This document shows positions 24,001-27,000 of a stretch of DNA of 64,000 nt, piece by piece. This stretch comes from Escherichia coli (GTDB taxonomy: Bacteria; Pseudomonadota; Gammaproteobacteria; Enterobacterales; Enterobacteriaceae): assembly GCF_003018115.1 (NCBI RefSeq), contig NZ_CP027457.1; one strand, written 5' to 3'. The first letter of the stretch is position 1; every line of letters begins with the position of its first letter. Made by a program: the position numbers.

Positions 24001-27000
24001 CTCATCCCGTTACCAACATGCTTTGCCCATTTCGTCAGTTGCCGTTCCGCAAGTCGTTTTAACTCACCCTGCGTCATCTGGCGCTCAATCCCTCTGGTAC
24101 GCATTTCGAGGCAGATGTGGTACAGCACAGGCTGTGGCCACGGGTATTTATCACTCCCGTCGTATCGCCAGGATTCATTGCGCCAGCGCCGGTACTCTTC
24201 CATCACGGCATCCACCGTAAGACCAAATGGATTTGCCCCACTCTCCGAAATCAGCGCAACAAACTCAGCCAGGTCCGGGGGCCACGTTTCACCCGCCCGG
24301 CAGCGGTCCATGCACTGACGACAGACCTGCCGGATTTGCTGTTCAGTCATCGCACCAATCTGGGCAATCCAGAGCTTCGAAGGTGCGGCCCCGTTCTTCT
24401 GAGTCCAGCGGTTCGAATACACCTCCCCCATAAGCTCCCACAGCTTCCAGGCCGTTTCCGTTGCTGATAAATCCGTTTTCACGTTCCCACTGTTCGCGTG
24501 CTGCCCGGATTTCCTGAACTGCCCGTGATGCCGTGCCACCTGATGCTGCATGGCTTACCCCCTTGCTGACTGGTTTTACCTGTGCCCTGACGTGCTGCAC
24601 GTGACGGGCAAATTTCTGCTCCCACTGAACCTGCGTGAAAACCTTCCCCTCCGCCATCCAGTAATCCCGGAATGCGGCAAGCTCAGCAGGTGTAAATTCC
24701 GGCTCAGGCAGAGCCATACCCCACACTGCTGCCCGTTGTCGAAAATCCGGCGACGGCTGCCAGACAGTAGTCATCGAAAATTTCCCGATCGGTTCGCTCA
24801 GGCCGTCCAGGTATTCAGGTTCGGCTGTCTGCAACGGCGCACCATTCGACTCACTGGTCGGAATACTCTCGCGCGCGTTATGTGTGGGGTTTAATTCTGT
24901 ATCTGTATCTTTATCTGTCGTGACTTGTCGTGACAGATGCGTGACACGTCGTGACTCATCGTGACAATCAGCATTATGTTTCCGCAGCTTTTCCCGCTCC
25001 CGCTGCGCTCTCTTGCGCTCTGCCGGGGATTTTGCCGTTTGCGAAACGTTACCATTGTCCTCTTTCAGCACCTGACGTTTTTCCCATCCGGAAATAAGGT
25101 CACCATCCAGAACCCGCCCCTGCATTGCATGCAAAATTGAATCAATTACGTCTTCCGTCACATCAAGCGCACTTGCTAAATCTTCCGTCGTGACATCAAT
25201 GTGACCACGTAGTGACACGCCGTGACATGTCGTGACATTTCGTGACGCGCTCACCAGAAGGTGGATATACACTGCCATCACTGTTGCGATTGGCTGTCCT
25301 GAGACCCTGGCAATAGTTCGCCACTTGGGGTCATTTGGCATGTCATGCCACAATCTGAGCCAGGCATTAGCCATACTCACCTCTTCTGATACCGAACTTT
25401 ACCCACGAACTTCCGGAAGAAATCCGGTATAAATATTGTTGGTCAATGTACAACAACAGCATTACCAGGCTGACCACCACTGTTAGTCAGGGTGCCCCAG
25501 GCGATCGCTACAGCGACAAAATCATCCACATCTTTCACCAGCCGATCCCGTCGTTCGACGATCTCCCGGTAATATTCAGAACTGTGACTGCGCATACGGG
25601 CCACCAGCAAAGGCGGCATCGCCTTTTCGATCGCCGGTAACAGCGCCTGAATTTTTTCAACAGCATCAGGCGTATCCTTCTCCACCCAGCGGAAAATTTT
25701 CTGGGTATTACGGGCCAGGGCTTCCGGATGGCTGTCGTCGTACAGTTCCGGGAACGTCATCCCCAGTTCGAAATAAGTCCGGGCTATTTCAGCTGCGGGA
25801 ACTTTCTCACCGTCCGGATATGCCCAGGCATTCATCGCCATGCGGATGTGTTCATGTTTGATTTTCATGAATCATTTTTCCTTTCGTTCGAGGTGTTATC
25901 CTTCTTTTTGTAAAGTTCTGGGTTCAACGATAGTTTTCCCTTGGAGTATGCAACTGCTTCAGCAGCCCTCCCCTTGGGAACTATTTCGCCGGGACGCTTA
26001 CGCCACATGTATATAGCTTCTCGGGTTACCCCATAAAAATCAGCGACTCTTTGGACAGAACCAAAAAACTGGACAAGTTCATCAACTCGCATTTCGCCCC
26101 CTTAAAACTAAGTATTTTTAGATTAAAGGGTAATTTTTTTTAGGTCAATACAATCTAAAATAATTTATATTCAATTCGCGGGAGAAAATAATGGAAAGCC
26201 TTGGCATTAGGCTTAAGAAACTCAGAAAAGACAAAGGGCTGACCCAAGTTGAACTTGGCAAGCTTTCTGGCGTAACTGGGGTAACAATAGGATACTGGGA
26301 GAAAGATCTAAACGAACCAGGTAGCAAAGCTCTTAGTAAATTAGCCCTAGCACTAGGCACTACTGAGTCCTATCTCCTGTATGGAGTATCATCACCTGAA
26401 TCATCCCTTGTGCAGAAAAATCCAGGTACCCAAATCCCATACCTTTCTTGGGGAGAAGCGATTTCTTTCCTAATATTAAAAGGAGAGAAAACTATGGGAA
26501 ATGTCGACAGGATCACCACATTCTTTGATGTCAAGGAGGGAGATTTTGCCGTTTCAATGCCTGATGATACTATGCACAATCCATCAGGGTCCCCAAGCAT
26601 TCCAGTTGGAGCCACAGTGATCATGAGGCCTGGCGAAAAATATAAAAATGGTAGCATCGTCGCTGTAATAGTCCCAGATCCACTCACAAACGAACCATCC
26701 ATGACTATAAAAAAATTAGTTATTGATGGAAAGCTCGTGTACTTAGCCCCCCTTAACCCACGCTATCAATCATCCTTACTTACACCGGAATGTAACATCG
26801 TTGCTGTAGCAAAAGGTGTTCAGTTCAGCCTCTAGCTCCCGCTTTGCCCTGTAATCAGAGGTCGGCTTTGCCGGCCTTTTATTTTAAAAATATTTATATT
26901 TAACTTGACGACAAAACTAAATATTCTTATATTCATTGCAACCCACCCCGCTTCACAGAATGCAGGGCAATACCTAGAGTTACCAGGCAGTGGTCAGGGG

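What the first reader, a model, noticed from the sequence alone, without database searches (positions are those of the whole stretch)
24343..24551. P-like ORF overlaps the 3' end of O by about 209 nt in another frame
Resemblance to lambda P begins near residue 28 of the 220-aa ORF, which suggests the long start is real, yet that places 69 codons of P inside the O C-terminal coding region. This is either a genuine long overlap or a mis-set start (internal Mets at 24431 and 24350), or a frameshift.
Basis: partly seen in the sequence, partly recalled or inferred. Interest (0 to 1): 0.3.

Follow-up and report, generated by a model that had tools for sequence, protein, structure and literature searches.

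The report
Conserved 209-nt initiator/helicase-loader gene overlap
In this E. coli prophage, the helicase-loader gene (lambda P-like) really starts 209 bases inside the preceding replication-initiator gene, an arrangement conserved in relatives; databases usually start the loader too late, dropping 67 residues.

Summary
On the minus strand, a 345-aa initiator ORF (24343..25380) and a 220-aa lambda-P-family ORF (23889..24551) share 209 nt, with P in the +1 frame.

The overlap is genuine and conserved. It is not a mis-set start or a frameshift.
- 23 usable related loci from many Enterobacterales genera, and three Vibrio phages, have the same +1 overlap of about 150-215 nt.
- All 23 enterobacterial loci keep an ATG at the long start, behind a Shine-Dalgarno site (mean -10.0 kcal/mol, against -4.9 and -3.7 for the internal Mets).
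- The initiator codon covering that ATG is always NAT, although the residue varies among H, N, Y and D.
- Codon periodicity switches from the initiator frame to the P frame at P residue ~28, 13 codons upstream of Met41. Neither internal Met can therefore be the sole start.
- Initiator synonymous sites over the P leader are suppressed (0.35 vs 0.57).
- Predicted order and disorder are complementary between the two frames.

RefSeq annotates the 153-aa form (start 24350) in all five E. coli genomes sampled.

The upstream gene is a DnaT-domain initiator, not a lambda O homologue. Its tail and P travel together behind different initiator types. Lambda, HK225 and phiv142-3 have only a 4-nt overlap.

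This is a well-supported dual-coding region and an annotation correction, of moderate interest.

The parts
24343..25380 (-). Replication-initiator ('O-like') gene. It has an N-terminal helical/winged-helix-like domain, a disordered linker, a DnaT DNA-binding domain (residues 201-267), and a ~78-residue C-terminal tail. The mechanical ORF starts at GTG 25380. PGAP starts it at ATG 25374.
   Evidence: Pfam PF17948 scores 62.6 bits against a cut-off of 25. There is no PF04492 hit.
23889..24551 (-). Lambda-P-family helicase-loader gene in its long form (220 aa), starting at ATG 24551..24549.
24343..24551 (-). The 209-nt dual-coding overlap. It encodes initiator residues 277-345 plus the stop, and P residues 1-69/70, with P in the +1 frame.
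24557..24564 (-). Shine-Dalgarno site AAGGGGGT for the long P start. It lies 5 nt upstream of the ATG, inside the initiator's Lys-Gly-Val codons. Relatives have GGAGGT there, encoded as Gly-Gly.
   Evidence: The anti-SD duplex is -11.9 kcal/mol here and averages -10.0 over 23 loci.
24471..24551 (-). Initiator-dominant part of the overlap. The P leader (residues 1-27) is predicted disordered and poorly conserved. It lies over the initiator's conserved tail helix (residues 286-301, window 24478..24525; motif TASRAVQxIRAAREQWER).
24346..24470 (-). P-dominant part of the overlap. P residues ~28-69 form the first three predicted helices of the N-terminal folded domain. They lie over the initiator's predicted-disordered acidic tail (residues ~304-345).
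24429..24431 (-). Internal ATG (Met41). This is the start used in many 180/181-aa database entries. It is rejected as the sole start.
   Evidence: The SD averages -4.9 kcal/mol, and P-frame periodicity begins 13 codons upstream.
24348..24350 (-). Internal ATG (Met68). This is the start used by PGAP for the 153-aa form, giving an 8-nt overlap. It is rejected.
   Evidence: The codon is ATG in 18 of 23 loci, TTG in one, and a non-start codon (CTG or TGC) in four. The SD averages -3.7 kcal/mol.

Best explanation
This is a genuine, evolutionarily maintained, out-of-frame overlap between two adjacent same-strand replication genes of a lambdoid prophage.

The proposed mechanism is as follows.
- The helicase-loader gene (lambda-P family) is translated independently from the ATG at 24551. 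Its Shine-Dalgarno site is written into the flexible linker codons (Gly-Gly or Lys-Gly-Val) that follow the initiator's DnaT domain.
- Ribosomes on the initiator frame continue for 68 more codons to the TGA at 24345..24343.
- The same 209 nt therefore encode the initiator's C-terminal tail (one conserved helix plus an acidic disordered end) and the loader's N-terminus (a disordered leader plus the first three helices of its N-terminal domain).
- The two frames share the constraint in turn. The initiator frame dominates the first ~80 nt, and the P frame dominates the remaining ~125 nt.

Shown here: both frames are conserved, the start signal is conserved, and the substitution pattern is that of dual coding.

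Inferred: the overlap arose from an ancestral ATGA-type junction, like that in lambda, HK225 and phiv142-3. The initiator was extended over the 5' part of P. The result keeps the initiator tail and its cognate loader as one inseparable recombination unit.
For: 1. Conservation of the arrangement. In 23 usable loci from Escherichia, Citrobacter, Klebsiella, Pluralibacter, Phytobacter, Kluyvera, Prodigiosinella, Pectobacterium, Erwinia, Rouxiella, Samsonia and others, the initiator ORF ends 34-94 nt before the WPPD anchor. In 17 of them it ends at -58 or -55. The P frame is open for 85 or more codons upstream of the anchor. Three Vibrio phages show the same +1 overlap of ~190-212 nt.

2. Start signal. 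The long ATG is present in 23 of 23 loci. The mean anti-SD duplex is -10.0 kcal/mol, against -4.9 for Met41 and -3.7 for Met68. The initiator codon over the ATG is always NAT while the residue varies among H, N, Y and D. This holds in 17 of 17 lineage representatives, against 46% NAT usage elsewhere, giving p of about 2e-6.

3. Protein conservation. P residues 34-67 are 82% identical within the enterobacterial group, as high as the non-overlapping body at 79%.

4. Periodicity. Over P residues 34-67 the diversity at P codon positions 1/2/3 is 0.11/0.09/0.36, against 0.16/0.11/0.47 downstream. The switch from initiator-like to P-like periodicity falls at P residue ~28.

5. Synonymous suppression. 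The initiator's 4-fold sites over the P leader show 0.348 diversity against 0.566 outside the overlap (difference -0.22, 95% CI -0.33 to -0.11).

6. Open frame. If P's synonymous codons are resampled, the initiator frame would stay open across P residues 34-67 in only ~6.5 of 23 loci. It is open in all 23.

7. Structure models. P residues 1-24 have pLDDT below 50, and helices run from residue 25. In the initiator, the helix at 286-301 has only modest confidence (pLDDT about 50-70), and residues 305-345 are below 50. Order and disorder are therefore complementary between frames. This parallels the lambda P layout of a disordered domain I (1-29) followed by domain II (PMC12661323).

8. Family profile. 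PHROG 109 aligns P residues 11-220 to profile positions 15-236. The non-overlapping P of phiv142-3 aligns from window residue 17.
Against: - There is no experimental evidence of any kind. No start-site mapping and no peptides are available.
- The P leader staying open is mostly a passive consequence of the initiator's amino-acid sequence. It is expected in 18.2 of 23 loci, so openness alone proves little.
- The leader is poorly conserved as protein (48% identity) and has indels.
- Reduction at P 4-fold sites in the P-dominant part is only marginal (0.418 vs 0.521, and the CI includes 0). The case that the initiator's last ~36 residues are selected therefore rests mainly on the conserved stop position and the resampling test.
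- The loci are phylogenetically related, so the p-values are optimistic.
- In the Vibrio phages the SD at the long start is weaker (-3.5 to -6.8 kcal/mol).
- Met41 is ATG in all 23 enterobacterial loci, so a second, shorter isoform cannot be excluded.
Confidence: 0.85

Rival explanations
1. P starts at Met41 (ATG 24431), giving a 180-aa protein and an 89-nt overlap. The upstream 40 codons are an untranslated by-product of the initiator's sequence.
For: - Met41 is ATG in 23 of 23 enterobacterial loci.
- Many NCBI entries of 177-181 aa start there.
- The leader's open frame is largely passive.
- The leader is poorly conserved.
Against: - P-frame periodicity and conserved residues (W35, W38, the AWxLWE motif) begin 7-13 codons upstream of Met41.
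- Initiator residues there vary only within codons compatible with P's Trp, as read directly from the alignment.
- Pectobacterium-type entries start at MAWxxWE.
- The SD is weak, averaging -4.9 kcal/mol.
- The position is Leu in Vibrio phage D67.
- The AF2 helix starts at residue 25.
- Initiator synonymous sites over the leader are suppressed.
Confidence: 0.07
2. P starts at Met68 (ATG 24350), as in the RefSeq/PGAP and GenBank annotations. This gives a 153-aa protein and an 8-nt ATGACTGA overlap. The 220-aa ORF is an accident.
For: - Five of five sampled PGAP annotations and two phage records use this start.
- A short overlap with the upstream stop is the common pattern for coupled genes, as in lambda O/P.
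Against: - The codon is CTG or TGC in four loci and TTG in one. It is Leu in many homologues.
- The SD is weak, averaging -3.7 kcal/mol.
- The 34 residues upstream are among the best conserved of the protein, and they evolve with P-frame periodicity.
- This start would delete three confidently predicted helices.
Confidence: 0.02
3. The overlap is an artefact of a frameshift, a sequencing error or pseudogenisation in this genome, or the two products are made as an O-P fusion by programmed frameshifting.
For: - PHROG 15931 (482 positions) matches the initiator at positions 1-347 and P at positions 279-482. This suggests that some database records carry fused ORFs.
- One locus (L018, Leclercia NCTC13032) has P's N-terminus joined in frame to the initiator tail at a G-run.
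Against: - The window is colinear in both frames with 22 other loci, and it is 100% identical to a finished E. coli chromosome.
- P lies in the +1 frame, which a -1 slip cannot reach.
- P has its own conserved SD and ATG.
- The G-run is not conserved.
- No Rfam element and no significant RNA structure is found at the junction (z = -1.3).
- I did not search for slippery sites.
Confidence: 0.02
4. The overlap is physically real, but the initiator's last ~36 residues (over P residues 34-67) are a functionless read-through tail. They are tolerated because they are disordered, and only P is selected there.
For: - Periodicity there is purely P-like.
- The tail has pLDDT below 50.
- Its recurring motif (FEPLDxEER) is largely dictated by P's conserved SNRWTxKNG, as read directly from the sequence.
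- P 4-fold sites are not significantly suppressed.
- The DnaT-type initiator of phiv142-3 lacks the tail altogether.
Against: - The stop position is conserved at -58 or -55 from the anchor in 17 of 23 loci.
- Random synonymous recoding of P would truncate the tail in about 70% of cases.
- The tail stays acidic and ends in a D/E-rich motif across genera.
- The tail is retained behind initiators of different type.
Confidence: 0.25

Closest known systems
Bacteriophage lambda O-P replication gene pair
   Same: - The position is the same in the immunity/replication region: repressor, cro, a cII-position gene, initiator, loader.
- The downstream gene belongs to the same Pfam family as lambda P (PF06992).
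- The predicted layout matches the published lambda P domains: a disordered N-terminal segment, two helical domains and a C-terminal segment (PMC12661323).
- Candidate iteron-like repeats lie inside the initiator gene, as ori-lambda lies inside O.
   Different: - Lambda O and P overlap by only 4 nt (39582-39585). Here the overlap is 209 nt in the +1 frame.
- The initiator here has no Phage_rep_O domain and carries a DnaT domain instead.
- Direct sequence similarity to lambda P starts only at residue ~70-75.
DnaT-domain initiator plus P-like loader modules (phage phiv142-3 'primosomal protein'/'replication protein'; the DopC/DopE pair of Brezellec et al. 2017, PMC5509034)
   Same: - The two-gene architecture is the same: a helix-turn-helix initiator with a DnaT C-terminal-type domain, followed by a lambda-P-family protein.
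- The DnaT domains are 50% identical to phiv142-3.
- P aligns from window residue 17.
   Different: - phiv142-3 has a 4-nt junction.
- Its initiator stops about 22 residues after the DnaT domain and lacks the ~78-residue tail.
- The DopCE paper does not mention any overlap.
Long same-strand out-of-frame overlaps of viral genes (overprinting, or terminal extension by stop loss or an upstream start)
   Same: - There are two conserved frames with alternating dominance of constraint.
- Synonymous variation is suppressed.
- The less constrained frame in each part is predicted to be disordered.
- The routes of origin listed in PMC2268670 (stop loss, or a shift to an upstream start) fit this case.
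   Different: - Here both partners are established, functionally coupled replication proteins. Neither is an orphan accessory ORF.
- The overlap joins the C-terminus of one partner to the N-terminus of the other.

Membership tests
Lambda P-family helicase loader (Pfam PF06992 / PHROG 109) | Significant match to the family profile above the curated threshold | tested here: met
   PF06992 scores 59.7 bits against a cut-off of 26, over residues 55-187. PHROG 109 gives E = 6e-63, with residues 11-220 aligned to profile positions 15-236 of 236. phmmer against lambda P structures (8v9t) gives E = 0.0025 over residues 70-192.
Lambda P-family helicase loader (Pfam PF06992 / PHROG 109) | Lambda-P-like layout: a disordered N-terminal segment, two helical domains, and a C-terminal segment | tested here: met
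   In the AF2 model, residues 1-24 have pLDDT below 50. Helices span 25-103 and 113-180, followed by a disordered stretch at 181-202 and a helix at 203-216. The lambda P domains I-IV are taken from PMC12661323. This rests on a prediction, not on a solved structure.
Lambda P-family helicase loader (Pfam PF06992 / PHROG 109) | Binds the host DnaB helicase and delivers it to the initiator-origin complex | not testable with these tools
   This needs biochemistry or genetics.
Lambda O-type initiator (Pfam PF04492 Phage_rep_O) | N-terminal Phage_rep_O DNA-binding domain | tested here: not met
   The window's upstream protein has no PF04492 hit at E <= 0.01. The same domain is found in the L019 partner, which carries the same tail/P overlap. 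The window gene should therefore not be filed as lambda O.
DnaT-domain phage replication initiator ('primosomal protein I-like', PF17948) | DnaT DNA-binding domain above the curated threshold | tested here: met
   PF17948 scores 62.6 bits against a cut-off of 25, over residues 201-267. PHROGs 1408, 3729 and 3992 ('replication initiation protein' / 'primosomal protein') also match. The AF2 pLDDT is about 90 for residues 200-265.
DnaT-domain phage replication initiator ('primosomal protein I-like', PF17948) | Origin (iterons) bound by the protein | tested here: inconclusive
   Two clusters of ~10-nt-periodic CGTGAC repeats lie inside the gene, at 24909-24965 and 25201-25246. Binding was not tested, and conservation of the repeats was not examined.
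Genuine dual-coding (out-of-frame overlapping) gene pair | Both reading frames stay open, with conserved ends, in divergent relatives | tested here: met
   This holds in 23 of 23 usable loci plus 3 Vibrio phages. The resampling null expects the initiator frame to be open in 6.5 of 23 loci.
Genuine dual-coding (out-of-frame overlapping) gene pair | Substitution pattern shows selection in both frames | tested here: met
   The periodicity switches at P residue ~28. The initiator's 4-fold sites are suppressed over the P leader (0.348 vs 0.566, and the CI excludes 0). P's 4-fold sites are only marginally suppressed.
Genuine dual-coding (out-of-frame overlapping) gene pair | Conserved translation-initiation signal for the internal start | tested here: met
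   The ATG is present in 23 of 23 loci. The SD averages -10.0 kcal/mol. The initiator codon over the ATG is NAT in 17 of 17 lineages.
Genuine dual-coding (out-of-frame overlapping) gene pair | Both products detected experimentally | not testable with these tools
   No Ribo-seq or proteomic data were available. The prophage genes are repressed in lysogens.

The most novel reading that the evidence does not exclude
The overlap may be a selected linkage device rather than a compaction accident. In this reading, the initiator's tail helix (and/or its acidic end) is the docking site for the loader's N-terminal leader and first helices. Writing both partners of that interface into the same 209 nt makes the cognate pair indivisible by recombination. 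Any initiator DNA-binding module that recombines upstream then automatically acquires a tail matched to its loader.

This fits two observations. The tail+P unit is found behind at least four different initiator architectures: lambda-O-type, DUF1376, HTH_36, and the window's type. The arrangement also persists from Enterobacterales prophages to Vibrio phages.
Probability: 0.3. Interest if true: 0.55.

Novelty: new variant of a known kind. Interest (0 to 1): 0.4.

Why it matters
- Annotation. The P-like helicase loader of this widespread prophage module has DNA matches in 2,619 of 5,426 complete E. coli genomes. It is annotated with at least four different N-termini: 140, 153, 177-181 and 216-223 aa. 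RefSeq uses the 153-aa form in all five E. coli genomes sampled. That form lacks the disordered leader and three predicted helices of the N-terminal domain. Anyone cloning or modelling the annotated protein would be working with a truncated loader.
- Evolution. This is a clean, deeply conserved example of two functionally coupled proteins sharing about 200 nt. Dominance alternates between the frames, and predicted order and disorder are complementary.
- Mechanism. It gives a testable hypothesis for how initiator-loader specificity is kept together in mosaic lambdoid genomes. It also points to the initiator tail (residues 268-345) and P residues 1-70 as the place to look for the still unresolved initiator-loader contact.

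Tried and rejected
- Direct comparison with lambda P did not resolve the N-terminus. phmmer against PDB chains aligns only from residue 70. hhalign of the family alignment against lambda P aligns only from residue ~75-78. Closer relatives were needed.
- The test of whether the P leader's open frame is itself improbable was largely uninformative. Given the initiator's protein sequence, it is expected to be open in 18.2 of 23 loci. I therefore did not use openness as evidence for the long start.
- An RNA-structure or riboregulator explanation for the conservation around the start was not supported. The MFE z-score is -1.3, and there is no Rfam match at E <= 1 in 23800-25500.
- I considered an AlphaFold run of an initiator-tail/linker/P fusion to test docking. 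I dropped it because the tool returns no PAE or contacts, so an interface could not be judged. The second structure job went to the full initiator instead.
- Five literature searches found no description of this overlap. The library is incomplete, so this is not proof of novelty.
- L018 (frameshifted, probably a long-read homopolymer error), L016 (a 560-nt contig) and L004 (identical to the window) were left out of the statistics.
- Loci L021, L026-L029 and L031-L033 lacked the WPPD anchor and were not analysed.
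Full report
**What is in the window**

All relevant genes are on the minus strand. A 345-aa ORF runs 24343..25380, and a 220-aa ORF runs 23889..24551. They share 24343..24551, which is 209 nt. The in-frame Mets of the second ORF are at 24431 (Met41) and 24350 (Met68). The P frame is +1 relative to the upstream frame. Its ATG lies inside the upstream codons CAT-GCA, which encode His277-Ala278.

The window is 100% identical over this stretch to the E. coli RM10466 chromosome. The context is a lambdoid immunity/replication region. In order it holds a LexA-family repressor, a Cro-like gene, a YdaT-family gene, the initiator, the P-like gene, then DUF1627 and DUF977 genes.

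**Identity of the two genes**

The downstream ORF belongs to the lambda P family.
- PF06992 scores 59.7 bits against a cut-off of 26. Residues 55-187 match profile positions 28-161.
- PHROG 109 'P-like helicase loader' aligns residues 11-220 with profile positions 15-236 of 236.

The upstream ORF is not a lambda O homologue.
- Its only Pfam hit is the DnaT DNA-binding domain, PF17948, at residues 201-267.
- PHROGs call it a replication initiation or primosomal protein.
- PGAP calls it a 'DnaT-like ssDNA-binding domain-containing protein'.

This two-gene architecture, a helix-turn-helix plus DnaT-type domain protein followed by a P-family protein, has been described for phage-derived DopC/DopE. 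That paper does not mention an overlap (PMC5509034).

**How databases treat the start**

Homologues in the protein collection are annotated with lengths of 140, 153, 177-181, 188/189 and 214-223 aa. PGAP uses the 153-aa form, starting at 24350 with an 8-nt overlap, in all five E. coli genomes sampled. Two phage records do the same. The PPompW phages use a 140-aa form.

**Protein-level evidence**

In an alignment of 29 homologues, the segment AWxLWExMGEIYSNRWTxKNGxxPSxLWIAQIG (residues 34-66) is strongly conserved across genera. Met68 is Leu in many of them. The region upstream of 24350 is therefore coding in the P frame.

**Comparative DNA evidence**

A scan of one genome per species returned 29 loci. 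Nineteen of these were usable. Together with the window and three phage or prophage records (L001-L003), that gives 23 loci.
- In all 23, the initiator ORF ends 34-94 nt before the WPPD anchor. In 17 it ends at -58 or -55.
- The P frame is open for 85 or more codons upstream.
- An ATG lies 81-91 codons upstream of the anchor, giving overlaps of about 150-224 nt.

The long ATG is always preceded by GGAGGT, GGGGGT or GAGGT.
- The mean anti-SD duplex energy is -10.0 kcal/mol. It is -4.9 at the Met41 position and -3.7 at the Met68 position.
- The Met68 codon is ATG in 18 of 23 loci, TTG in one, and a non-start codon (CTG or TGC) in four.

In the initiator frame the SD is read as Gly-Gly, and the ATG is read as NAT-Gxx.
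- The initiator residue varies among His, Asn, Tyr and Asp.
- The codon nevertheless always ends in T. This holds in 17 of 17 lineage representatives, although NAT makes up only 46% of such codons elsewhere in these genes. The probability is about 2e-6, ignoring residual relatedness.
- Selection therefore acts on the ATG itself, not on the initiator residue.

**Which frame is under selection where**

Pairwise diversity by codon position gives the following picture.

| Region | Frame read | Diversity at positions 1/2/3 |
|---|---|---|
| Initiator, outside the overlap | initiator | 0.22 / 0.21 / 0.50 |
| Initiator, over P residues 2-33 | initiator | 0.29 / 0.27 / 0.43 |
| P residues 34-67 | P | 0.11 / 0.09 / 0.36 |
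| P, non-overlapping body | P | 0.16 / 0.11 / 0.47 |

The initiator keeps its normal wobble pattern over the P leader. Over P residues 34-67 the pattern flips to the P frame and looks like the non-overlapping body of P.

A 5-codon sliding window places the switch at P residue ~27-28, around window position 24470. That is 13 codons upstream of Met41. Neither Met41 nor Met68 can be the sole start. The only conserved start codon upstream of the switch is 24551.

The initiator's 4-fold degenerate sites coincide with P's second codon positions. They are significantly less variable over the P leader than outside the overlap: 0.348 against 0.566, a difference of -0.22 (95% CI -0.33 to -0.11). This is what dual coding predicts. 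P's 4-fold sites in the P-dominant part are only marginally reduced, at 0.418 against 0.521.

I also resampled synonymous codons while holding one protein fixed.
- The P leader's open frame is mostly a passive consequence of the initiator sequence. It is expected in 18.2 of 23 loci, so it was not used as evidence.
- The initiator frame would stay open across P residues 34-67 in only 6.5 of 23 loci, yet it is open in all 23.
- This argues that the initiator tail is kept open by selection.

**Structure predictions**

In the P model, residues 1-24 have pLDDT below 50. Helices span 25-45, 47-53, 59-66 and 70-85, with pLDDT about 85 over residues 31-60.

In the initiator model:
- the DnaT domain has pLDDT about 90;
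- residues 269-283 are disordered, and this stretch contains the SD and ATG of P;
- a helix spans 286-301 with only modest confidence (pLDDT about 50-70);
- residues 305-345 have pLDDT below 50.

In window coordinates, the initiator helix (24478-24525) lies entirely under P's disordered leader (24480-24551). P's first helix starts at 24479. Order and disorder are complementary between the frames, and the boundary matches the evolutionary switch point.

The layout parallels lambda P, where domain I (residues 1-29) is an intrinsically disordered N-terminal 'lasso'. The authors speculate that it engages lambda O. Domain II follows it (PMC12661323).

**A mobile module, and an old one**

The conserved initiator tail (…GESxAVQxIRAxRExWE…EPLDxEER…) together with P occurs behind initiators of different type.
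- The window's own type is shared by L022.
- L019 has a lambda-O-type N-terminal domain (PF04492, 94 bits) and no DnaT domain.
- L020 has an HTH_36 type.
- Other N-terminal domains occur with or without a DnaT domain.
- One E. coli genome has a DUF1376 protein whose similarity to the window begins in the middle of the initiator.

Three Vibrio phages carry P-like ORFs of 210-220 codons, counted stop to stop, that are 36-43% identical in the N-domain. They overlap a lambda-O-like or winged-helix initiator by about 190-212 nt, in the same +1 frame. Their annotations again start P too late.

By contrast, lambda, HK225 (phi80-type) and phiv142-3 have the classical 4-nt junction. phiv142-3 is informative.
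- Its initiator shares the DnaT domain (50% identity) but stops about 22 residues after it, so it lacks the tail.
- Its non-overlapping P aligns with the window protein from residue 17.

The simplest inference is that the P N-terminal domain is ancestral, and that the initiator was extended over it. The routes by which overlaps arise are listed in PMC2268670.

**Alternatives**

- A frameshift or sequencing error is excluded by colinearity with 22 other loci.
- An O-P fusion by frameshifting is unlikely. P is in the +1 frame and has its own conserved SD and ATG. No structured RNA or Rfam element lies at the junction. I did not search for slippery sites.
- Fused ORFs do seem to exist in some database records (PHROG 15931). 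One Leclercia assembly is frameshifted at a G-run. These look like errors or pseudogenes.
- A second isoform starting at Met41 cannot be excluded.
- Whether the initiator's last ~36 residues have a function of their own remains open. I give 'no function' a probability of about 0.25.

**Novelty and verdict**

Five literature searches found no description of this overlap. The library is incomplete, so this is not proof of novelty.

Both genes are members of known families. The new feature is a deeply conserved overlap of about 200 nt, in place of the 4-nt junction of lambda-type modules. A practical consequence is that RefSeq and many GenBank records truncate the loader by 40-80 residues.

I rate the genuine-overlap explanation at 0.85, and the linkage-device interpretation at about 0.3. 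Overall interest is moderate, at 0.4.

Noticed in passing
window 24909-24965 and 25201-25246 (inside the initiator gene): There are two clusters of a ~10-nt-periodic repeat containing CGTGAC (GTCACG on the coding strand). The repeat finder reported five 26-nt registers. These are iteron-like and could mark a phage origin inside the initiator gene, as ori-lambda lies inside O.
   Followed up: no
window 25374-25380: The mechanical ORF of the initiator starts at GTG 25380 (MSMANAW...). PGAP starts it two codons later, at ATG 25374, giving 343 aa. I did not examine which start is used.
   Followed up: no
PHROG 15931 (no window coordinates): This 482-position PHROG profile matches the initiator (residues 3-344) at profile positions 1-347. 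It also matches the long P (residues 1-220) at positions 279-482. The family seems to be built around fused initiator-P ORFs, probably from frameshifted records.
   Followed up: no
L018 (Leclercia adecarboxylata NCTC13032), around 2600-2700: P's N-terminus (MQEF...WQVMG) is joined in frame to the initiator tail (GNILEPVDAEEW...) at a G-run. This is probably a homopolymer indel in a long-read assembly, or a pseudogene.
   Followed up: partly
L035 (Vibrio phage D67) 1399-2061; L036 1390-2022; L037 1375-2034: The P-like genes of these Vibrio phages are annotated as short 'hypothetical proteins' starting 11-120 nt too late or later. The stop-to-stop open frames of 210-220 codons overlap the O-like or winged-helix initiator by ~190-212 nt, in the +1 frame.
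   Followed up: partly
window 22394-26835: The neighbourhood is a typical lambdoid early region. It holds a LexA-family repressor (26191..26835, +), a Cro-like gene (25865..26092, -) and a YdaT-family gene at the cII position (25443..25868, -). Downstream of P lie DUF1627 (within ORF 23130..23873, -) and DUF977 (within ORF 22680..23129, -) genes.
   Followed up: no
PMC3640518 (lambda literature): [quoted passage not shown] It terminates within the N-terminal coding region of P. This is an interesting parallel to the native initiator extension over P seen here.
   Followed up: no
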